From contig OZ024758.1 of assembly GCA_964016885.1 (NCBI GenBank), positions 9,982,001 through 10,046,000 on the forward strand: DNA of 64,000 nt, in the 5' to 3' direction. The notes beneath the pieces are model-generated. The model saw only the letters and a list, made by a program, of their open reading frames with translations, made no database searches and was not told the DNA's origin. The DNA comes from Eledone cirrhosa. Taxonomy: Eukaryota. Each line of letters starts with the position of its first letter. Within the stretch, counting starts at the first letter, position 1. Position numbers and translations under genes: made by a program. Positions 12,919-60,300 of this stretch are shown here, piece by piece.

Positions 12919-12921
<3 letters not shown>

Positions 12922-13129
12922 TTATGTATTTTTTTTAAATGTTATTTATTCATTATACAAATTAAATAATAACATTCTATATGTAGGTAGGCCCCTTTCA
13001 TCTCCTGGCAACCAATATTTTTAGACCCAGTATTGGTTGCCAGGAGATGAAAGGGGCCTACCTACATATAGAATGCTATTATTTAATTTTTATAATGAAT
13101 AAATAACATTTTTAAAAAATACATAAGTG
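12919..13129. mobile_element. ~100-bp-arm fold-back palindrome next to (TA)n, carrying an HHR 3' half (GAAA-GGGGCC-TA)
   Basis: Near-perfect inverted arms CACTTATGTA...GGCAACCAATA / TATTGGTTGCC...TACATAAGTG with a ~12-nt loop. AATAAA lies downstream of the HHR half. Confidence 0.75.
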
Positions 13130-14744: not shown

Positions 14745-14871
14745 AAAGTTCTATTTAAATTGTTGGGATACAACAACCAAATATTTTTATAACTGATATA
14801 AAGCACTCAACAAATAATTGGAATAAAAATACGATATTAACAAATGGAAACTATATTTATAAAACCATATT

Positions 14872-14936
14872 TATTTCATTATACATATTTCAAGGACACC
14901 AAGTTAAATTATGGTGTGCTTTCATCAGATAAAATA
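14872..14936 (-). ncRNA. Type I hammerhead ribozyme motif (family P3) inside a TA-flanked insert 14742-15078
   Basis: Minus strand: TATTTTAT-CTGATGA-AAGCACACCA taatttaact TGGTGTCCTT-GAAA-TATGTA-TA-ATGAAATA. Stems I and II pair and the core is intact. Confidence 0.75.
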
Positions 14937-15076
14937 TAATATAAAGCAGTTTTATAAATAAATATTGACATACCCTTAAAGAATGCAACCATTACTGTTG
15001 GAAGCTCCCAGATAGTTGAAATATGTATAATGAAATAAATATGGTTTTATAAATATAGTTTCCATTTGTTAATATC

Positions 15077-15237
<161 letters not shown>

Positions 15238-19000: not shown

Positions 19001-19322
19001 ATTTCTCCCGAATGAAACAGTTCTAGTCCTGTAGAGGCGTTTCTATATTAAATATTTATACTCTTCTTTGTATTGAGTAACTTACTTACTGTGGTTACCC
19101 CCGATTGAACCCGGGATAAACTTATATATATAACAAAGGAATTGTGGTAAGGAACCAGATGGACCATAACGCACCAGAGTACTCAATACTTAGGGTAGTA
19201 GAGTGGGAAAGATGAAGAAGTATGACCCCGACGGCAGAGCTCAAGCCGTTTCGACGGCTATTTCTGGCTATTTCAGAAATACCCGTCGAAACGGCTTGAG
19301 CTCTGCCGTCGGGGTCATACTT

Positions 19323-19362
<40 letters not shown>

Positions 19363-19490: not shown

Positions 19491-19564
<74 letters not shown>

Positions 19565-19565
<1 letters not shown>

Positions 19566-19755
19566 ACGGAAGAAATGTGGTAAGGAACCAGGTGGACCAT
19601 AACGCACCAAAGTACTCAATACTTAGGGTAGTAGAGTGGGTAATAGGAACGAGTAGGACCCCGACGGCTGAGCTCAAGCCGTTTCGACCGCTAATTCTGG
19701 GTCCAGAATTAGCCGTCGAAACGGCTTGAGCTCAGCCGTCGGGGTCCTACTCGTT

Positions 19756-19760
<5 letters not shown>
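19565..19760. mobile_element. P1 fold-back module in (TA)n
   Basis: Palindrome 19643-19760 with ~58-bp arms. Each arm carries GAAA-CGGC..GCCG-TC-GGGGTC. Confidence 0.8.
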
Positions 19761-19840
<80 letters not shown>

Positions 19841-20529: not shown

Positions 20530-20840
20530 TGTAGCTATTGGTACAGCGGTAGAGTGCATCAGTTCAGATCTGATTGCTGCATGTTCGAATCACGTTGGGT
20601 TCAACGAGGATGAGTCAAGGAGAGCTCATTGAGTCACCGAATTATGGTTGCTTGGTCCATTTGCTAAAAATAGTAACCTAATCTCTCTTAAACTATATCC
20701 TACGTTCTTAAAAAGTGGAACACACTGGAAAATATTGCTCGGAGATTACATTATGCGTAAACAAAAAGATGGGTTAGTCATGGCTGGAACACTTTGACTA
20801 AAAAAAAATCTACATAACAAACCGATTGAAGCTGCCCCTG
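20530..20840 (+). mobile_element. tRNA-derived SINE family C (other remnants near 2330, 2700, 20300, 34450, 35870, 41910, 51020, 55520)
   Basis: A box TGGTACAGCGG, B box GTTCGAATC, then the shared TGCTA[G/A]AAATAGCAGCCAAATCT...GTCATGGCTGGAA body. Other copies end in (AAC)n. Confidence 0.7.
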
Positions 20841-21692: not shown

Positions 21693-21865
21693 TCAATTAT
21701 AAATTTAGTAACGAAAGGTTTAAAGCAGAGCTTTTGCCTATGCTTCCATTCGAAGAAATGAAAAATCTCGAAGTAATGACTGGGTGCTTCTACTAAACAC
21801 GAAAATACAACTAAATTCGTCAGACACCACAATGGCTTATACAGTCTTAATTATTTTACTTATTC

Positions 21866-21996
21866 ATAAGGATGAAAGGCAAAGTCAATCCCGCCGAGGT
21901 TGACTTTCCCTTTCATCCTTATGGGGTCGACAAAATAAAGTACCAGTAATGCCAGTGGGTAATTGCTGGCTTTGTGCCTAAAGTAGAAACAATTAT
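21866..21996 (+). mobile_element. 5'-truncated SINE A with inverted 5' segment
   Basis: CATAAGGATGAAAGGCAAAGTCAA followed by its reverse complement TTGACTTTCCCTTTCATCCTTATG, then the normal tail. Confidence 0.8.
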
Positions 21997-22498
21997 TTTA
22001 CTTATTCAGAAGTAACAACTTTAAATGAGACAGGATAATATAAGGGGTGTATTGTTTTAAATAAGAGTTTAGTGCTAAAAAGACAATGTGTAAGAGGAGT
22101 GGATAAAAATAGCAATTATTTAGGTAAATCAACACGTTTAAGATTACAGAGTAAAAATACAATGAAACAAAAGAGCGATGAGAAATACGTATAATATTAT
22201 CCCGTTGTCATCCGGATGACATATTAATGTGACTGACGATGACCAAGCCTAGGTGATGACCAAGAATTAGGAAGTGATGAGTACATTTGCTCCCCGGGCG
22301 GCAAGCTGTTCTTTGAAAGGAGTCGCGAAGTATTAGTGGTGTTTAGTGATCTGGTGACTTAGTAGCTTTAAGGCTGGTTCTATTCCAGAAATGTCGTCGT
22401 TGTCATTATCGTCTTGGCCCTATATGTATGCATCTTACGTGTGTATGTGTGTGTGTGTGTGTGGAGGGGGTATGTGTGTATATGTATGTGTGTATGTG

Positions 22499-22537
<39 letters not shown>

Positions 22538-22596
22538 AATAACTGAATCCAGAAAACAATTTAAGGTATATAGGGACGGGAAATGTATTAATTCAA

Positions 22597-22659
<63 letters not shown>

Positions 22660-22722
22660 ATATATATATATGTGTATATATATATATATGTATATATACA
22701 TATATGTCTATATACATATATG

Positions 22723-22753
<31 letters not shown>

Positions 22754-22754
22754 T

Positions 22755-23360
22755 GTCAGGTCACCAGTTGGTGCTACTGGTAACATGTATCCCAGTACAA
22801 CCTGTCCCATGGTCGGGTCGTTGGCGACTAAACTGGCAACCCCACCAAGGTTTCTTGGTGAGGAGGGTGACTTTGGACATCCTGCAGGACTAAAAACAAA
22901 ACCTGTCAAAGGGCAAAGGAGCTCTTAAGAGTCAATGGCCATCCAAAATCACCGGGAGAGATGACCCCTTAGCCTTTGTCAAGGCAGAATTCTAGGAGAA
23001 GGAAAACTCTGATATAACACCTGCAACCCTGATGGTATCCAATGATGTTGACTTGTTCTTCTTTTTGGTAAATATCATCTTGGTTAAGAGAGTGGGACTG
23101 GCTTTGTGCAGTGCCTTTGCTCACTATAAAAGCTTCACGGCACAGGCATTGCTTTATATCTGGAGATCTCTCTGCACTTGTCGTCACATGGTACCATGGG
23201 CCCAGCACTATGTGTCAGTAATTGTCACAAGTGTAGTGTTTGTACCAGAGTTTTCAAGTCGCTGGCTGGACTAAAAAGTCACACTCGTTCAGCGCATCGG
23301 TAGGGGTTCTCCTACATGGATATAAAGTAGTGGCCGTACTCGAAAACGAGTTGGCAGCCA

Positions 23361-23363
<3 letters not shown>
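22755..23363 (+). mobile_element. ~610-bp bipartite RTE-derived non-autonomous retroelement (family E), full length
   Basis: RTE-like 5'UTR motif TCTAGGAGAAGGAAAACTCTGAT. The 3' part encodes C2H2 finger [25 protein letters not shown] (23226-23303), followed by stem-loop ACTCG-AAAA-CGAGT and a microsatellite tail. Near-identical copies at 49947-50538 and 55905-57383. Confidence 0.8.
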
Positions 23364-23438
<75 letters not shown>

Positions 23439-23471
23439 GTATATATACATATATGTATATATACATATATG

Positions 23472-23522
<51 letters not shown>

Positions 23523-23555
23523 GTATATATACATATATGTATATATACATATATG

Positions 23556-23602
<47 letters not shown>

Positions 23603-23635
23603 GTATATATACATATATGTATATATACATATATG

Positions 23636-24026: not shown

Positions 24027-24244
24027 CTGCCAAACTGTCAGAGCTATTGAAAATATATGCTATTTTCAAAAATACAGTGACTGATAGGCCTGATTTGCAT
24101 ATTATATATTTGTGTGTGTGTGTGTGTGAGTGTGATATGTGTACACATATATATATATATATATATATATAAACATATCAATATATATATATATATGTGA
24201 GTATGTATGTGTGTGTGTGTGTGTATTTCCTAACATTTACATAC

Positions 24245-24330
24245 GTTGAATCCATCCGTTTCACTGAGGAAGTTATTATCTCTGACGAGCCGTGTGAGAT
24301 AACTTCCTCGCTGAAAAGCGCGTATTCAAC
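24245..24330. mobile_element. Diverged fold-back carrying an HHR 3' half (GAAA-[C]GCGCG-TA-TTCAA)
   Basis: GTTGAAT..GTTTCA CTGAGGAAGTTAT..TCTC / GAGATAACTTCCTC GCTGAAAAGCGCGTATTCAAC. Confidence 0.55.
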
Positions 24331-24428
24331 ATACAAACTCTTTTACTTGTTCCAGCCATCCGGCTGAGGTCATGCTGGGGCACCGCCATTGTTGCTACAA
24401 ATTAACCAAGTTATGTATATTACAACGT

Positions 24429-24489
<61 letters not shown>

Positions 24490-24494
<5 letters not shown>

Positions 24495-24781
24495 AAAAAG
24501 AGATGAAATCGAAAATGCAACCGAAGTCTTATTTTTTTTTTAAATATATATACTTATTTGGTTCCTTTACCGTTTCGCAGTTCTTCTGCTTTTCAAAAGG
24601 TGAGTTGAGATGGAGGGTCTGTGGTTTTTCTCACATCTGAAAAACCACAGACCCTCCATCTCAACCCACCTTTTGAAAAGCAGAAGAACTGCGAATCCGG
24701 TAAAGGAACCAAAGAAATATATATATTTTAAAAAAAAATAAGACTTCGGTTGCATTTTCGATTTCATCTCTTTTTCTTTAT
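24490..24781. mobile_element. ~140-bp-arm palindrome with a minimal U3-A8 variant hammerhead in each arm (family P5)
   Basis: Arms 24490-24630 and 24639-24781, 8-nt loop. Motif consensus CCTT-TTGAAAA-GCAG aagaa CTGC-GAAA-CCGG-TA-AAGG at 24564-24600 (-) and 24669-24706 (+). Each copy has one lesion. Confidence 0.75.
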
Positions 24782-24837
24782 ACTTCCACTCGTGTAGGAC
24801 ACCTCGGTTATTTTTCATTTTGTAAAACAAACCTCAC

Positions 24838-24880
<43 letters not shown>

Positions 24881-25011
24881 AAAGTTCTATTTAAAGTTGT
24901 TGGGATACAACAAGTAAATTATAAGCAAATCACTATCCAGACAGCCTCCAAAAGTAATGGTTGTATTTTAAAAGGGTACGTCAAAGCTATTTGTAAAACT
25001 GTTATATATTG

Positions 25012-25076
25012 TATTTTGTCTGATGAAGGCATACCATAATTTTATGTGGTATCCCTGAAATATGTATAATGAAATA
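25012..25076 (+). ncRNA. Type I hammerhead ribozyme motif (family P3) in TA-flanked insert ~24878-25116
   Basis: TATTTTGT-CTGATGA-AGGcATACCA taattttatg TGGTATcCCT-GAAA-TATGTA-TA-ATGAAATA. Stem II covaries relative to 14872-14936. Confidence 0.78.
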
Positions 25077-25115
25077 AATATGGTTTTATAAATATAGTTT
25101 CCATTTATTAATATC

Positions 25116-25227
<112 letters not shown>

Positions 25228-25267
25228 AAATAAAAAGTCAAATGTTTAAAATTTATCTTCGTTTATT

Positions 25268-25322
25268 ACTGCTATATATATTTCAGTGACAGCCATCTTT
25301 GGCTGTGACCTCTTCAGGCAGT
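25268..25322 (-). ncRNA. Type I hammerhead ribozyme motif (family P6)
   Basis: Minus strand: ACTGC-CTGAAGA-GGTcACAGCCA aaga TGGCTGTcACT-GAAA-TATATA-TA-GCAGT, followed by AATAAA. Stem I is perfect and stem III is palindromic. Confidence 0.82.
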
Positions 25323-25850
25323 TTGAATTAGTATGGTATAGACAAGTACATATGTTGTTGAGGTGTATAATATTGTCAATACTCTGATATGTTGGTATAC
25401 AACCAACATATACTCAAAATCTCTCTCTCTATATATATATATATACTACTACCAGTACATTTTATCAAAGTCTATGAGGCACTTCAGAAAAGGACATTGT
25501 CCTTTTTCCTCTGGCGTAATACATAAAATATATATTATATTATATATTAATATATATCTGACTGATTGTTGTTTGAATACGCAATAGGGGGGGGGGGGGG
25601 GATAGTATGGTACCTCACACTTTTCCTGGCTCTAATGTGTATTGTAAAGCCTCTGGTGAGTAGCGAAACCCCAGCCTGCTGTACAACTTACCAAGAACTT
25701 TGAATGAGCCACGAATTGAATGATTTGCTGTATTTGCCTTCTGACTCTCTGTATTCCTTGTGTTCAAATCTTACAGAGGTCAATTTTCCGGTGGTTAAAA
25801 AGTATCAGCCCAGCCCTGAGGTGGATTCTTCTCTACAACTCATTCTCACT

Positions 25851-37984: not shown

Positions 37985-38058
37985 AGGCTCCGGAGGGATT
38001 CGAACCCTCGACCTCCAGTTTACTAGACTGGCGCTCTAACCAACTGAGCTACGGAGCC
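37985..38058 (-). tRNA. tRNA-Thr (anticodon AGT)
   Basis: Minus strand: GGCTCCG TA GCTC AGTTGGTTA GAGC G CCAGT CTAGTAA ACTGG AGGTC GAGGG TTCGAAT CCCTC CGGAGCC T. All four stems pair perfectly and the A/B boxes are intact. No encoded CCA. Confidence 0.97.
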
Positions 38059-41114: not shown

Positions 41115-41269
41115 AGGCTAAAAGAGATAGAAGACTAAATAATTGTTTCTACGTTAGGCACAAGGCCAGCAATTACCCAGTGCAATAAAGTACCAGTAAT
41201 GCACTGGGTAATTGCTGGCCTTGTGCCTAACGTAGAAACAATTATTTAGTGTTCTATCTCTTTTAGCCT
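41115..41269. mobile_element. Fold-back of SINE A tail plus ~25 bp of flanking DNA
   Basis: ~70-bp near-perfect inverted arms. Confidence 0.85.
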
Positions 41270-49946: not shown

Positions 49947-50538
49947 GAGATGACCCCTTAGCCTTTGTCAAGGCAGAATTCTAGGAGAAGGAAAACTCTG
50001 ATATAACACCTGCAACCCTGATGGTATCCAATGATGTTGACTTGTTCTTCTTTTTGGTAAATATCATCTTGGTTAAGAGAGTGGGACTGGCTTTGTGCAG
50101 TGCCTTTGCTCACTATAAAAGCTTCACGGCACAGGCATTGCTTTATATCTGGAGATCTCTCTGCACTTGTCGTCACATGGTACCATGGGCCCAGCACTAT
50201 GTGTCAATAATTGTCACAAGTGTAGTATTTGTACCAGAGTTTTCAAGTCGCTGGCTGGACTAAAAAGTCACACTGGTTCAGCGCTTCGGTAGGAGTTCTC
50301 CTACATGGATATAAAGTAGTGGCCGTACTCGAAAACGAGTTGGCAGCCACCATGTATGTATGTATGTACCATAGGCCCAGCACTATGTGTCAATAATTGT
50401 CACAAGTGTAGTGTTTGTACCAGAGTTTTCAAGTCGCTGGCTGGACTCAAAAGTCACACTCGTTCAGCGCTTCGGTAGGAGTTCTCCTACATGGATATAA
50501 AGTAGTGGCCGTACTCGAAAACGAGTTGGCAGCCACCA
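49947..50538 (+). mobile_element. Family E: 5'-truncated copy (49947-50352) plus a second, shorter 3' copy (50366-50538), in (TATG)n
   Basis: Near-identical to 22958-23363. Confidence 0.85.
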
Positions 50539-51071
50539 TATATGCATGCATATATGTATATATGTAAATGCATATGCATGTATGTATCTATGTATGCATG
50601 TAGGTATATACGTGCGTGCATACGTGAGTATGTATCAATATGAATCGGCTCTTTTTGAGCGAAAATACGTCTTTGGTTCATACAAACATGAACAGTTTAC
50701 TGCTATTCACAAGTAAACCTGCACTATAGATATTATCAATTGTACACACGCATGCTTGTCACACGAGGATTCTCACTTATGTCTATAGAGATGTGGTCGT
50801 AGTAATAGAAGTATTGTAGCAGCCATTGTCGTACGTTTCTTAGATATTATGATATGGCAGTGGCTATACAAGTGTGTTTGTAAGTACAGTCCACAGATGA
50901 TGGATGTCGCCGTGTACTCGTAACCGTGTACTCGTATGTTTTGTCTCTGTTTTGTTTTTCTTGTTTTAATGGTATAGTGATAGTTGTGCTGGTGCATATG
51001 CAATAGCTATTGTGGTTGTTGTTGTTGTTCTCTAGCTCAAGGTCGGCCCTGGTTCAGCAGAACAATAACTA

Positions 51072-52746: not shown

Positions 52747-52800
<54 letters not shown>

Positions 52801-52802
<2 letters not shown>

Positions 52803-52958
52803 CGAAGGAAATGTGGTAAGGAACCAGATGGACCATAATGCACCAAAGTACTCAATACTTAGGGTAGTAGAGTGGGTAATAGGAACAAGTAGGACCCCGA
52901 CGAATTAGCCGTCGAAACGGCTTCAGCTCAGCCGTCGGGGTCCTACTTGTTCCTATTA
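52801..52958. mobile_element. P1 fold-back module with central deletion, in (TA)n
   Basis: Nearly identical to 19565-19760 but lacks most of the left inner arm. Confidence 0.8.
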
Positions 52959-52987
52959 TATATATATATATTTGTTCAATATAGAAA

Positions 52988-54746: not shown

Positions 54747-55904
54747 ATAGTAATCTAAATTGACGTGATTATATTTTCGAAGCACCGGGTAAATTGAAAT
54801 TCATTTTAGGAAATTTAGGAACCCCAAACGCAGAAAATAACTGTAGCAATAGTCGAGTACAATAAATAATAGTTTAGAAACTCTAGTAAAATACCCTCAT
54901 GAACAGAAAAAAGATGTCCTTTAGTTCAATAGCTTGAGCACTCGGCCGGAATTTAAGTCCCGTAACCTGGCGTTTCGACGAAAAGAGATCGATATGGATC
55001 GACTTTATGGCGGCGGTGCCCCAACATGGCCGCAATCTAATGATTGAAACCAGAAAACAAGTAAAATACAAACCGCCTTCCATTTGGTTTTTACACCGTC
55101 AGTTGTAGGCGGATGTAGAAAAAAATTAATCTTTTTATAGTTTTAAATTCACTGCACAGTCAAACAATAACATTGAATGTCATATTGGTGATATTAGAAA
55201 ATGTTAACAATGATGTTTGTTTCCGAACATAAATCTATAAAACTGAATACAAATGTGCCCATAACATCAATAATCAACACACGTAGCTGAATAAGTTTCT
55301 GCATTGATTAAACAAATAAACTGTTTATGTATTTGAAACACAACTGACACGAACTGGAACAGACATCTAAAGTCTGTATTTTTCGTTTAACTATTCAGAA
55401 TCAGTAGCAGTCTCCATCAATGGATCTTTGATCTTATTGAAATCAAAGAATAGAGGACTCGACATTAAGTCGGTGTTGTCGTTGTTCTTTTTGTGACTCC
55501 TACTGTTGTTGTTGCTATTGTTACTGTTGCTGTTTTGGTTTAGCCCTTAGGTTAGTCATGATAACGCTGAATTTATGATCAAAGGCGTTCCAGTTCTGAC
55601 CATCCTATCTTTTTGTATATTCATGACTACACTACCTACTGTGTTATTTCACTTTTATGATGGTAGGCTATGATTTTAGGGAGTTGTGGGATTGTTTTAC
55701 CAAATGGCATGTAAGGGCAACAAACGAGGTTAATTATCTTCGGTTTCTCGTGAGTGGGAGCCATCGGGTGAAAAAACAAGTAAATTAGTGTATTAAGCGC
55801 CCTTCCTGTGCCTCAGAATAATTGATAACATACGTACATACACACATACATATATACACACATACATACACACACACTCACATACACACGCATACATACA
55901 TACA

Positions 55905-57383
55905 TGGTGGCTGCCAACTCGTTTTCGAGTACGGCCACTACTTTATATCCATGTAGGAGAACCCCTACCGATGCGCTGAACGAGTGTGACTTTTTAGTCC
56001 AGCCAGCGACTTGAAAACTCTGGTACAAACACTACACTTGTGACAATTATTGACACATAGTGCTGGGCCCATGGTACCATGTGATGACAAGTGCAGAGAT
56101 CTCCAGATATAAAGCAATGCCTGTGTCGTGAAGCTTTTATAGTGAGCAAAGGCACTGCACAAAGCCAGTCCCACTCTCTTAACCAAGATGATATTTATCA
56201 AAAAGAAGAACAAGTCAACATCATTGGATACCATCAGGGTTGCAAGTGTTATATCAGAGTTTTTCTTCTCCTAGAATTCTTCTTTGACAAAGGCTAAGGG
56301 GTCATCTCTCCCGGTGATTTTGGATGGCCATTGACTCTTAAGAGCTCCTTTGCCCTTTGCCAGGTTTTGATTTTAGTCCTGCGGGATGTCCAAAGTGACC
56401 CTCCTCACCAAGAAACCTTGGTGGGGTTGCCAGTTTAGTCGCCAACGACTCGACTATGAGACAGGTTGTACTGGGATACATGTTACCAGTAGCACCAACT
56501 GGTGACCTGACATACATACATATATGCATACGTACATACATACACACATGCATACGTACATGGATACGTACATACATACGTACATGCATACGTACATACA
56601 TACACACATACATATACACATACATACACATACATACACACACACACACATACATACATGAATACATACTTACACATACATACACGCACATACATGCATG
56701 CATATATATACATACACACACATACATACATACATACATACATACATACATACATACATACATACATACATACATGGTGGCTGCCAACTCGTTTTCGAGT
56801 ACGGCCACTACTTTATATCCATGTAGGAGAACCCCTACCGATGCGCTGAACGAGTGTGACGTTTTAGTCCAGCCAGCGACTTGAAAACTCTGGTACAAAC
56901 AATACACTTGTGACAATCATTGACACTTAGTGCTGGGCCCATGGTTCCATGTGACGACAAGTGCAGAGAGATCTCCAGATATAAAGCAATGCCTGTGCCG
57001 TGAAGCTTTTATAGTGAGCAAAGGCACTGCACAAAGCCAGTCCCACTCTCTTAACCAAGATGATATTTACCAAAAAGAAGAACAAGTCAACATCATTGGA
57101 TACCATCAGGGTTGCAGGTGTTATATCAGAGTTTTCCTTCTCCTAGAATTCTGCCTTGACAAAGGCTAAGGGGTCATCTCTCCCGGTGATTTTGGATGGC
57201 CATTGACTCTTAAGAGCTCCTTTGCCCTTTGACAGGTTTTGTTTTTAGTCCTGCAGGATGTCCAAAGTCACCCTCCTCACCAAGAAAACTTGGTGGGGTT
57301 GCAAGTTTAGTCGCCAACGACTCGACTATGAGACAGGTTGTACTGGGATACATGTTACCAGTAGCACCAACTGGTGACCTGAC
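55905..57383 (-). mobile_element. Two full-length family E copies in tandem (55905-56511, 56775-57383)
   Basis: Reverse complements of 22755-23363. Each is followed by the same complex (CATA)n/CGTA spacer. Confidence 0.88.
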
Positions 57384-60300
57384 ATACATACATACATGCA
57401 TACGTACATACATACACACATGCATACGTACATGGATACGTACATACATACGTACATGCATACGTACATACATACACACATACATATACACATACATACA
57501 CATACATACACACACACACATACATACATGAATACATACTTACACATACATACACACACATACATGCATGCATATATACATACATACACACACATACATA
57601 CATACATACATACATACATACATACATACATACATACATACATACATACATACATACATACATACATACATACATACATACATACATACATAGCGTGCAT
57701 GTATGAATTGATAGAAACATGTAAATATGTAGAAATAGGTATTTATAGCTATTTATGCAGTTTTCATTGAATCTGATAACTAAAGTGTAGTTAAAAGCAA
57801 AATCTTGCTGATCGATATCAGCATCGAACCGGTTAAATACCTTTATCTTCCTAAATCTCTTTCAAAATATACCCCCATACGAGCCATTAGTCTACCATTC
57901 ACATTGATTGACTTCTATTAAACTTGCGTTGATATTGATTATTTAACTCGACTGAAGTTTAATTTCTTACAATTGTTAGTATTGATATTGTTTATTCTGT
58001 TTAAAGGAAGATAACGTGTGCTGTATATGATATAAGATGCGATATTAATTCCCCAACTAAAGCCACTTTAAACCGTGTGATGTGAAGAAGAAGACATATA
58101 TCGGTAGACTGTTGCTGACATTTTCTTGGAAAGAATCAAATTATATTCAGATATCACTCAGTACATACGAGATACTGTATTGATAATCGAATCACCGCAC
58201 TGTCTAGCTAGGGGTTGTGGTGGTGGTGGTATTTACTGAAAACGTCAAATTCAACTGAAATGAGAGGATTTAAATTGAAATGATGGGATTTAAACTTTAT
58301 ATCGTTATTAAAAACAAGAAACCATTTCCTCTTAACATCGATCACCATCTGTGATCTCGACTGAGATTTGTGGAGGCTAATTTTGTTCTGTTTCTTACAT
58401 TTTGTAGCAATATATAAGTACTATAAGTTTCCTTTAATGAGACCTAATAATACTTCTTAAATCTCTTGAGAAGTTCATAGGCCTGACCAAGATACTCTCA
58501 TGGAATGACCAAATGAGATTTATTTTTCAACATAGTCCCTGGAAAGAAACAAGGCAGTTATTAATAAGAAGAGTTGAAATTAATGCATGCAAGATTTCAC
58601 GGCTCTAGCATTACTCCTTCAGTCGACCTAGCATTACTTCAACTTTTCAGTCGACCCTCGTACGTTTTCCTATACAGAACTCTTTTGCTCTCTTTCCTAA
58701 TTAGGAAGAAATCAGACGTGTTCAAACCTGGAAAGGGATGGATTCCTCCAGGCGTGTTACTATGGCACCCCTACTACTCCATCAATAGTTAAGGGAATTT
58801 TCCTTCCTTCCTACCTTTCTTTCCTTTATTCTTATACAAAATTAATACCTGTATTGTGTAATTATTGTTGCGCCTTCTTACTGAGTATATTGGTGTAAAA
58901 TACAAATTGTAAAATGAAAATTCAGTTTTATTTCCAGAGCTCTTTTTAGCCATTACTTGGGAGAAAAATAATTATTTCTGAGAAATTTTAAGTTAAATTG
59001 CTTCAATCTTCAAACAATAAATTAAGAATTATCTTCTATTTAAAATTAAACCTGTAATTTATGTAAACTCAGGACAATTTACACACTTCTGACATTTAAA
59101 GTTTTATAAGAGGATGCTTAGAAACATTATAAAAGGTTACATGAGGATTTAACTGCGTGAGTAATCTTAGCTATATGATATTTTTTTCGTGATTTCATAT
59201 AAATTCGCGCCCTATTTCATACTTGATGAATGCTAATTTCTTCTTTAAAATATTTTCTAAAAATCTCTGCCTAATTCGGATATGAATTACGGTTGTTTGC
59301 TGGTCAGGAAGTCGATTGGAAGAGCCGTATTATTGCACAATATTGATCACTATATTATTATACTACAAAAGAAGATGACAACACTCTCTGTTATTGTTTT
59401 ATAGAATTGTTCACATCAATGAAATCTTTAAAATCTCAGAGGCATTTAATGGTTGACAGGAACATTTTTTTTTCTTTTTCAATATTTCATTAAATTTTAA
59501 TCAAAGGACATTATAACAAAACTAGCTAAAAACCATGGCAATTCAATGGTAAAGGGGGAAAAGCCAGCTTCATTATCGACATCGTTTATTCTCACATTAA
59601 CAGTGGTTTAAAGAGAATAGTTTGTTTTTTAATCTGAAACTAGAAGATAAAGAAGGAATATAAAAGAGAGAGAAGATATAACAGCAGACAGAATTAGAAG
59701 GTTTTGCGTGTGTGTAACTGTATGTGTATATTACACACATACATATATGTGTGTGTGTCTGTGTATGTAACTGTGTGTATATTACATGTGTTTAACTGTG
59801 TATATTATGTGTGTGTGTGTGTCTGTGTGTGTAACTGTGTGTATATTACATGTGTTTAACTGTGTGTATATTATATGTGTGTGTGCCTGTGTGTGTGTGT
59901 GTGTGTAACTGTGTGCATATTACACACTCATATATATATGTGTGTGTGTGTGTGCATAAATGTATATATCTGTGTTTGTTTGTACTAAATCAGACAGCAT
60001 TTTGTACTAGACAATAAGCGAATCGTTAGATCAACTGACGTAAATCTAAGACTGTTGGATCCGTTGACTTTTATTTCAAACTTGTTGTGTCTGAAAATCT
60101 AATAAAATTATTCATGGTGGATGATAGAATTAAATACGCTAAAGTGAAGTTGGCGGGTGTATAGCATTTTTATTACCAATAATATATTACAAATGCATCA
60201 AAAGTAAATATAACAGTTTTTATAAACACCAAACGATGTTTGCAAACTGTTAGGAAAAATTCAAACGACGAATGTCATCAACAAATATGTACACTGTTAA

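What the first reader, a model, noticed from the sequence alone, without database searches (positions are those of the whole stretch)
24490..24781. U3-A8 core-variant minimal hammerhead in both arms of a 290-bp palindrome
Seen: consensus CCTT-UUGAAAA-GCAG(aagaa)CUGC-GAAA-CCGG-UA-AAGG. The canonical C3 and G8 both change, to U3 and A8, which preserves the 3-8 Watson-Crick pair the active fold needs. Stem III reduces to the self-complementary ACCGGU, which fits dimeric cleavage. The left copy lacks one C and the right copy has GAAT, so the intact motif is a two-copy consensus. Such variants are known but are missed by CUGAnGA searches.
Basis: partly seen in the sequence, partly recalled or inferred. 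Interest (0 to 1): 0.75.

Follow-up and report, generated by a model that had tools for sequence, protein, structure and literature searches.

The report
Hammerhead-bearing Penelope-type repeat, head-to-head insertion
The palindrome is one slightly decayed, mirror-image insertion of an abundant short repeat of the Penelope jumping-gene type, whose family carries a rare but already described version of the small self-cutting hammerhead RNA, so it is a new example of a known thing.

Summary
24488-24782 is a fold-back with 96% arm identity, and each arm has a U3-A8 minimal type I hammerhead with one defect. Laying public runs on the right arm shows a high-copy repeat family (4,047 contigs in one run). 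Its majority letter repairs the right arm's defect (A at 24696 in 99.7-99.9% of contig depth), giving GAAA, an ACCGGU helix III, and U3/A8 essentially fixed. The palindrome is not the dimer: each transcript holds one sense motif, buried in a -225 kcal/mol hairpin. Both arms share a rare base, so they are one observation. The ~215-bp element sits in (TA)n, is joined head-to-head at variable microhomology junctions and has a ~61-bp one-sided tail, which is typical Penelope-like-element anatomy. U3-A8 minimal hammerheads and opposite-strand pairs were already reported for such elements (PMC4209133). Not shown: a linked RT/GIY-YIG ORF, stem covariation, expression, cleavage. Verdict: new member of a known kind; this copy is probably dead.

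The parts
24431..24489 (.). (TA)n tract, left side of the insertion site
   Evidence: sequence; the fold-back abuts it
24490..24639 (-). Left arm: element copy from the family's complete 5' head (24639) to its first 3' end point; no tail
   Evidence: head and end point match loose ends table 7
24564..24600 (-). U3-A8 minimal type I hammerhead of the left arm; core complete, helix III lacks one C and is no longer self-complementary
   Evidence: self-duplex -1.5 vs -8.3 kcal/mol
24630..24640 (.). Head-to-head junction: full head of the left arm joined at a 1-nt G microhomology to family position 10 of the right arm
   Evidence: alignment; other copies join at family positions 3, 6 and 8 (my reading of the insertion rows at 24638 table 4)
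24639..24782 (+). Right arm: 5'-trimmed element copy
24669..24706 (+). U3-A8 minimal type I hammerhead of the right arm; A15.1 replaced by U (24696); predicted cut between 24702 and 24703
   Evidence: family has A at 24696 in 99.7-99.9% of contig depth and 1,086 of 1,107 raw reads
24783..24843 (+). Unpaired ~61-bp tail: part of the family, present on the right arm only, ending at the family's second 3' end point
   Evidence: family depth continues to the end of the laid stretch; loose ends behind 24782 and 24827 both run into (TA)n
24844..24877 (.). (TA)n tract, right side of the insertion site
   Evidence: sequence
25014..25074 (+). Neighbouring, unrelated repeat with a canonical C3-G8 minimal hammerhead (second copy at 14874-14934, minus strand, inside another fold-back)
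25268..25322 (-). Third, unrelated canonical C3-G8 minimal hammerhead with a palindromic helix III

Best explanation
The palindrome is one insertion of a short (~215 bp), high-copy, non-coding repeat that is the hammerhead-bearing end (pseudo-LTR plus tail) of a Penelope-like retroelement, or a non-autonomous derivative of one. SHOWN: family membership, the intact majority motif, the fixed head, two 3' end points, variable junctions and the (TA)n target. INFERRED: in the source RNA the U3-A8 hammerhead folds as a dimer through its self-complementary helix III and cuts slowly after U16.1-A17, probably with help from the element's protein. INFERRED: a Penelope-type RT/endonuclease nicked both strands of a (TA)n tract and began two cDNAs at two start sites downstream of the hammerhead, one giving the tail-less left arm and one the tailed right arm. 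Their 3' ends were then joined at a 1-2 nt microhomology near the head, which yields the head-to-head fold-back. The palindrome is an insertion scar and not the ribozyme dimer. Each arm has since taken a disabling change, and any read-through RNA would fold into a long hairpin that hides the motif, so this copy is probably inactive.
For: Family majority repairs both defects: T>A at 24696 in 99.8% (X1), 99.7% (X3) and 99.9% (X4) of contig depth and 1,086 of 1,107 X5 reads. X1, X3 and X4 list no A>G place, and all four T>C places of X1 and X3 lie outside the core, so U3 and A8 are not reverting at >=3%. Two 3' end points ~61 bp apart, both followed by (TA)n, and a head preceded by TA-rich letters (table 7). 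Three other junction forms at 24638, plus one head joined to 24700 (tables 4, 5). Both arms share G at 24748 where the family has A in 99.8%. The layout of a fold-back abutting (TA)n on one side with 62-83 unpaired bases before (TA)n on the other occurs in 5 of 11 fold-backs examined. Three canonical minimal hammerheads lie in the window against 0.005 expected per shuffled window. Literature: U3-A8 minimal hammerheads and opposite-strand pairs 100-700 bp apart in Schistosoma PLEs (PMC4209133); inverted copy, tail and microsatellite bias (PMC8557442; PMC3846280); both-strand cleavage and extension with two RT start sites (PMC11167929).
Against: No RT or GIY-YIG ORF is linked: 0 of 7 frames at the locus hit Pfam, and among all 16 frames scanned only an unrelated zinc finger did; no genome is held. 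No compensatory stem change is seen in the family. About 46-48% of X1 depth (333 of 416 X5 reads, 0% in X4) carries a change at 24668-69 that cuts stem I to 3 contiguous pairs. Four contigs of organism B read C3 with A8, which breaks the 3-8 pair. One A>C place at >=3% in X1 and X3 is not shown and could lie in the core. Helix II is 4 bp and the usual extra base after A9 is missing. The tail is longer than the 30-40 bp in print, and a fixed 5' head is not the usual ragged truncation. Fold-backs also occur in the window's abundant ~190-bp repeat (21865-21923), so head-to-head form is not specific to Penelope elements. Stem I is weakly populated even in a single arm (probability 0.01-0.27). Rfam finds no hammerhead.
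Confidence: 0.66

Rival explanations
1. Same origin, but the motif no longer cuts even in the family majority. It is a hammerhead-shaped relic kept, if at all, as a protein-binding or RNA-pairing signal, and the family spread without cleavage.
For: Stem I is weak and shortened in about half the depth, C3-A8 contigs occur in organism B, and no covariation is seen. In an anole PLE, hammerhead mutants still insert, the ribozyme does not cut without protein and no RNA reads end at the cut site (PMC11167929). Minimal hammerheads cut poorly even as dimers (PMC4209133).
Against: Every catalytic position and the 3-8 pair are kept in the majority of three contig runs from two organisms, as far as depth allows (X4 depth over the first half of the core is only ~500 against ~26,000 downstream). 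U3-A8 ribozymes are reported active in vitro (PMC3088659).
Confidence: 0.17
2. A SINE-like repeat mobilised by some other retroelement, in which the hammerhead-like motif is a coincidence and fold-backs come from a general inversion process in this genome.
For: Fixed 5' head and no ORF. Other repeats in the window also form fold-backs. The UUGAAAA core is low-complexity; relaxed chance rate is 1-3.5% per window.
Against: The majority letters complete an all-Watson-Crick motif with a palindromic helix III; that strict form occurred in 0 of 300 shuffles. There is no poly(A) or simple-repeat 3' end of the family's own, and two alternative 3' ends.
Confidence: 0.09
3. A MITE or fold-back DNA transposon with TA target duplication, the palindrome being the mobile unit.
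For: Near-perfect 295-bp inverted repeat flanked by TA.
Against: The family continues 61 bp beyond one arm. Depth across the centre (11,781 in X1) is under 5% of that in the first bin of the arm (250,483). Junctions vary between copies and many heads are preceded by (TA)n, not by a mirror arm. Summed contig depth is not a copy count, so the proportion is rough.
Confidence: 0.04
4. This locus is itself functional: the two arms act as a ribozyme pair or switch, or the hairpin is a selected small-RNA source.
For: Very stable hairpin, z = -28.75 against shuffles; sub-threshold matches to microRNA-precursor models.
Against: Any recent inverted duplication gives this fold; all those matches are below the Rfam cut-offs. 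Both motifs are damaged and on opposite strands.
Confidence: 0.03
5. The fold-back is an assembly or library artefact.
For: Palindromes next to long (TA)n tracts are hard to assemble (general knowledge; also noted in PMC8557442); no listed record spans the whole stretch.
Against: The arms differ at 6 places; contigs in X1 and X3 cross such centres in several forms; only one arm has the tail.
Confidence: 0.01

Closest known systems
Minimal hammerheads (min-HHR) of metazoan Penelope-like elements, in particular the U3-A8 variant of Schistosoma mansoni Cercyon elements (Cervera & De la Pena 2014, PMC4209133)
   Same: Type I topology, 4-bp helix I, G10.1-C11.1, palindromic helix III, U3-A8 core (their S. 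mansoni(4) row also begins UUGAAAA), high copy number, dispersed single motifs and opposite-strand pairs within 100-700 bp.
   Different: Helix II is 4 bp, there is no extra base after A9, and helix III is a 6-nt palindrome. That geometry matches their Marsupenaeus row, which has a C3-G8 core. No ORF link is shown here. The host is a different animal (cephalopod-like by my recall of its repeats, not tested).
Penelope-like element insertions with an inverted 5'-truncated copy, optional tail and microsatellite bias (PMC3846280; PMC8557442; PMC11167929)
   Same: Head-to-head inversion, tail on one end only, (TA)n target with no discernible target duplication, two 3' end points downstream of the hammerhead.
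   Different: Whole insertion is ~355 bp with no ORF; tail ~61 bp instead of 30-40; the family has a preferred 5' head.
Natural C3-G8 to U3-A8 core covariation in hammerheads (Perreault et al. 2011, PMC3088659)
   Same: Same compensatory change, described there as natural and previously shown active in vitro.
   Different: Here it is the majority state of a high-copy animal repeat with a dimer-type helix III.
Metazoan non-LTR retrozymes (PMC7229834; bioRxiv 10.64898/2026.07.22.740005)
   Same: Short non-coding repeats with a type I hammerhead, proposed to be non-autonomous PLE derivatives.
   Different: Those are head-to-tail tandems with canonical cores; this copy is a single head-to-head insertion with a minimal variant core.

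Membership tests
PLE minimal hammerhead (PMC4209133) | Core 3-9 with a Watson-Crick 3-8 pair (C3-G8 or the U3-A8 variant) | tested here: met
   Both arms. No A>G and no core T>C at >=3% in X1 and X3. Exceptions: 4 contigs with C3-A8 in organism B, and one unshown A>C place.
PLE minimal hammerhead (PMC4209133) | G12-A13-A14, A15.1-U16.1 and H17 | tested here: met
   Met by the family majority (99.7-99.9% A at 24696) and the left arm; not met by the right arm itself (U15.1).
PLE minimal hammerhead (PMC4209133) | Palindromic, very short helix III | tested here: met
   Family majority ACCGGU, self-duplex -8.3 kcal/mol; neither local arm has it intact.
PLE minimal hammerhead (PMC4209133) | G10.1-C11.1 pair and helix I of 4-5 bp | tested here: met
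   Window sequence; helix I drops to 3 contiguous pairs in ~46% of X1 depth.
PLE minimal hammerhead (PMC4209133) | [quoted passage not shown] | tested here: not met
   Absent. Also absent in the Marsupenaeus (PLE-linked) and Saccoglossus(2) rows of their Fig. S3.
PLE minimal hammerhead (PMC4209133) | Enlarged helix II (7-8 bp in S. mansoni; consensus trait, not universal) | tested here: not met
   4 bp here; 4-bp helices II occur in PLE-linked rows of Fig. S3 such as Acropora and Marsupenaeus.
PLE minimal hammerhead (PMC4209133) | Compensatory changes in stems across the family | tested here: inconclusive
   None among the 40 of 64 rows shown table 3; the family is too uniform, and pooled letter counts do not phase pairs.
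PLE minimal hammerhead (PMC4209133) | Self-cleavage as a dimer | not testable with these tools
   Bench assay needed.
Penelope-like element (EN+) | Single ORF with telomerase-like RT and GIY-YIG endonuclease flanked by pseudo-LTRs | tested here: inconclusive
   Not present at this locus; whether any family copy adjoins such an ORF could not be searched, as no genome is held.
Penelope-like element (EN+) | Inverted, 5'-truncated copy adjacent at the 5' end | tested here: met
   variable junctions in other copies.
Penelope-like element (EN+) | Optional tail at one end | tested here: met
   24783-24843 and two family end points; ~61 bp, longer than the 30-40 bp in print.
Penelope-like element (EN+) | Insertion in microsatellite or AT-rich DNA | tested here: met
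   (TA)n on both sides; loose ends of other copies run into (TA)n.
Rfam hammerhead families | Score at or above the family cut-off | tested here: not met
   No hammerhead hit in the window; 0 of 44 matches up to E=10 in 24200-25400, a stretch whose two canonical minimal motifs were missed as well.
Non-LTR retrozyme | Head-to-tail tandem units each with a type I hammerhead | tested here: not met
   Single insertion, no other copy in the window; tandem copies elsewhere in the genome could not be checked.
MITE / fold-back DNA transposon | Symmetric fixed termini and a constant palindromic unit | tested here: not met
   One-sided tail, variable centre, mostly single-arm copies.

The most novel reading that the evidence does not exclude
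The self-complementary helix III is a dimerisation signal for replication, like a retroviral dimer-initiation site. It holds two element RNAs together so that a dimeric Penelope RT primes from both nicked target strands, one cDNA per RNA and one from each of the two start sites, and the cDNA ends meet at G or TG microhomologies near the head. This would explain in one step the head-to-head palindromes, the one-sided tail and why Penelope hammerheads keep a palindrome although cleavage is dispensable for insertion. The junctions here argue against simple fold-back of one cDNA: the arm with the full head lacks the tail that the other arm has, and two junction forms would need loops of 1-2 nt. 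A search for 'twin priming' with 'Penelope' listed 3 papers, none on this by title or abstract start; Lunse et al. (PMC5785218) could not be read.
Probability: 0.12. Interest if true: 0.7.

Novelty: new member of a known kind. Interest (0 to 1): 0.3.

Why it matters
As it stands it adds one more animal repeat family to the short list with a U3-A8 minimal hammerhead as the majority state, and it shows that CUGAnGA and Rfam searches miss a family with thousands of contigs. The high copy number, the several junction forms and the C3-A8 contigs in a second organism make it a convenient natural data set for two open points: whether Penelope minimal hammerheads are under selection to cut, and how Penelope inverted insertions form. 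The locus itself is probably a dead copy.

Tried and rejected
Whole-genome search: no genome held. Other copies in the window: none beyond short AT-rich matches. Rfam: only a tRNA at the cut-off and sub-threshold hairpin models. Metagenome pattern scan: 5 loci, none with similarity beyond the pattern and none with helix III or closing stem I, rejected as chance. Viral and prokaryote collections: 0 matches to the motif pattern. Sequencing runs: no RNA holder listed, which says nothing on expression. Pfam on 16 frames picked from the ORF lists: no RT or GIY-YIG. Earlier notes by place, by sequence and by one word set: nothing. Considered and dropped: reading organism B contigs that start at 24699-24701 as copies beginning at the cut site, since the polymorphism at 24729-31 explains those starts; a copy number from summed contig depth, which the tool rules out (a rough figure from reduced-representation reads is 700-3,400 copies for assumed genomes of 1-5 Gb, and is biased); simple cDNA fold-back as the origin of this junction. 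Lunse et al. (PMC5785218) is not held.

Full report
1. Observation. The window is AT-rich, microsatellite-laden animal DNA; no genome is held for it. That it looks cephalopod is my recall of its repeats and was not tested. 24488-24782 is a fold-back whose arms align at 95.8% over 144 columns with 6 differences. The motif is as described. On the right arm (+, 24669-24706) U3 is 24673, A8 24678, stem II 24680-83/24689-92, and position 15.1 (24696) is T. On the left arm (-, 24600-24564) GAAA is intact and helix III lacks one C. A descriptor written after seeing the motif hit both arms and 0 of 300 shuffled windows; its defect-free form hit neither arm. A general relaxed descriptor found the left arm, and hit 4 of 400 shuffles with stem I >=4 and 14 of 400 with >=3. 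Rfam has no hammerhead hit but also missed two canonical minimal motifs in the same stretch.

2. The family. I laid 4 of the 7 listed runs on 24622-24842 at 80% likeness. X1 and X3 (one sample) gave 4,047 and 4,391 contigs, X4 (a second organism) 83, and X5 (reduced-representation raw reads) 2,436 reads, so this is a high-copy repeat. At 24696 the family has A in 99.8%, 99.7% and 99.9% of contig depth and in 1,086 of 1,107 reads. No deletion like the left arm's appears among the rows shown (10 indel rows and 24 substitution rows were not shown). X1, X3 and X4 list no A>G place, and the four T>C places of X1 and X3 are 24746, 24769, 24775 and 24777, so U3 and A8 do not revert at >=3%; one A>C place in X1 and X3 is unshown. 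Against a clean picture: about 46-48% of X1 depth (333 of 416 X5 reads, none in X4) changes 24668-69 and shortens stem I to 3 contiguous pairs; no compensatory stem change is visible; four X4 contigs read C3 with A8; and X4 depth over the first half of the core is only about 500. Summed contig depth is not a copy count.

3. Anatomy. Loose ends place a preferred 5' head 9 bases upstream of the right arm's start, preceded by TA-rich letters (14 and 22 contigs, agreement 0.6), and two 3' end points, behind 24782 (36 and 48 contigs) and at about 24843 (20 and 23 contigs), both running into (TA)n. The left arm has the full head and stops at the first end point; the right arm starts at family position 10 and runs to the second, giving a ~61-bp one-sided tail. 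Other copies cross the centre with 2, 4 or 7 more bases (X1 depth 3,465, 1,913 and 2,234 of 11,781); I read these as second arms starting at positions 8, 6 and 3, each at a G or TG shared with the end of the first arm. One X5 locus joins the head to 24700. Centre-crossing depth is under 5% of the first arm bin, so most copies are not palindromic at this centre. Both arms carry G at 24748 where the family has A in 99.8%, so they come from one source (or one converted the other) and count as one observation. Of 11 fold-backs examined in the window, 5 including this one abut (TA)n on one side and have 62-83 bases before (TA)n on the other. Three canonical C3-G8 minimal hammerheads occur at 25020 (+), 25317 (-) and 14928 (-), against 0.005 per shuffled window. 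No RT or GIY-YIG domain was found in 16 frames picked from the ORF lists, 7 of them at the locus.

4. How it works. The majority helix III self-pairs at -8.3 kcal/mol, the right arm's at -6.3 without the 15.1-16.1 pair, and the left arm's at -1.5. Changes at 15.1/16.1 are reported to cost at least tenfold (PMC3088659). Each strand of the locus holds one sense and one antisense motif, and in the full transcript (-224.7 kcal/mol) stems I and II have probability 0.0. The palindrome therefore cannot be the dimer. The best reading is an insertion scar of a Penelope-type element. In the source RNA two motifs (tandem or from two molecules) pair through helix III and cut slowly, likely with protein help as in the anole element (PMC11167929). 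At insertion the enzyme nicks and extends both strands of AT-rich DNA from two start sites, as shown in vitro in that paper, and the cDNA ends join at a microhomology. The family facts and junctions are shown; Penelope mobilisation, twin priming and cleavage are inferred. Cautions: no ORF link; the window's abundant ~190-bp repeat also forms fold-backs; the tail is longer than in print; in the anole element cleavage is dispensable for insertion, which keeps a non-cutting relic in play.

5. Comparison with what is known. PMC4209133 reports a U3-A8 minimal hammerhead found with the Schistosoma Cercyon element (about 1,300 hits) and dual motifs 100-700 bp apart on opposite strands. Its Fig. S3 has a PLE-linked row starting UUGAAAA and a Marsupenaeus row with the same geometry as here. 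Inverted copies, tails and microsatellite bias are standard for these elements (PMC8557442; PMC3846280). So it works like a PLE minimal hammerhead; membership is met on core, helix III and insertion anatomy, not met on two non-universal traits (extra base after A9, long helix II), and open on ORF link and cleavage. Searches for hammerhead with octopus, or with cephalopod and Penelope, listed no paper on such a family by title or abstract start; 'U3-A8' with hammerhead returned only PMC4209133.

6. What I saw of each paper. PMC4209133: parts 1-2 of 4 of the text and parts 1-2 of 3 of the supplementary PDF, where the GAAA column is detached from the rows. PMC11167929: passages and the second part of the main text. 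bioRxiv 10.64898/2026.07.22.740005: part 1 of 5; its supplements are closed. PMC8557442, PMC3846280, PMC6765202, PMC3088659, PMC6155905, PMC7229834, PMC7151607, PMC13282606: passages only. Lunse et al. (PMC5785218): nothing but the title in a reference list; it may already cover this variant and its dimer cleavage. Unread supplements of PMC8557442 list PLE families with hammerheads and could include this one.

7. Earlier scan notes describe similar palindromic PLE stumps in other genomes. I had reached the PLE reading before seeing them; my junction analysis came after and may have been prompted by one of them. They are unchecked notes and not evidence.

8. Verdict. Real feature, correctly seen, new member of a known kind; local copy probably dead. 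Interest 0.3. The boldest reading left open, helix III as an RNA-dimer signal for twin priming, I put at 0.12.

Noticed in passing
window 24490-25420: Three unrelated hammerhead-bearing short repeats (one U3-A8, two C3-G8) lie within about 900 bp, separated by (TA)n and (GA)n tracts, like a repeated-insertion hot spot.
   Followed up: partly
window 14823-15112: Fold-back of the same family as 24878-25117, with a canonical minimal hammerhead on one arm and the other arm starting at the GAAA box.
   Followed up: partly
window 19123-19362, 19551-19776, 52787-52971, 1294-1429: Another repeat family with the same layout (fold-back with variable centre, ~80-bp one-sided tail, (TA)n flanks) but no hammerhead hit in my scans.
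   Followed up: partly
window 24700-24797: A donor-like GT begins at 24700, inside helix III, and an acceptor-like AG with 75% pyrimidines upstream ends at 24797. A 98-nt intron here would make splicing and cleavage mutually exclusive, but the GT is forced by the hammerhead motif and no such joint is listed in the DNA runs.
   Followed up: partly
run X4 (organism B), window 24669-24684: Four contigs read C3 with A8, an unpaired 3-8 state that could be an intermediate between C3-G8 and U3-A8 or simple decay.
   Followed up: no
window 24668-24669: Two subfamilies at about equal depth in organism A; the one with the shorter stem I is absent from the few organism B contigs.
   Followed up: no
window 24245-24335: Imperfect hairpin (78% arm identity) containing CUGAnGA-like and GAAA boxes, not passing the hammerhead scans.
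   Followed up: no
window 21865-21923 and 41115-41269: Fold-backs apparently made from parts of the window's abundant ~190-bp repeat (tRNA-SINE-like by recall; the first by alignment, the second by eye), showing that inversion is not limited to hammerhead families.
   Followed up: no
window 12919-13129: Further 211-bp fold-back, 96% arm identity, abutting (TA)n on the left; no hammerhead hit.
   Followed up: no
window 37985-38058 (-) and 20530-20605 (+): tRNA-Thr(AGT), also found by Rfam at 75.8 bits, and a tRNA-Leu(CAG) call by ARAGORN only.
   Followed up: no
window 22423-23626, 49947-50621, 55828-57692: Near-identical ~420-bp repeat in several copies (up to 98%); one frame carries a weak C2H2 zinc-finger match.
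   Followed up: no
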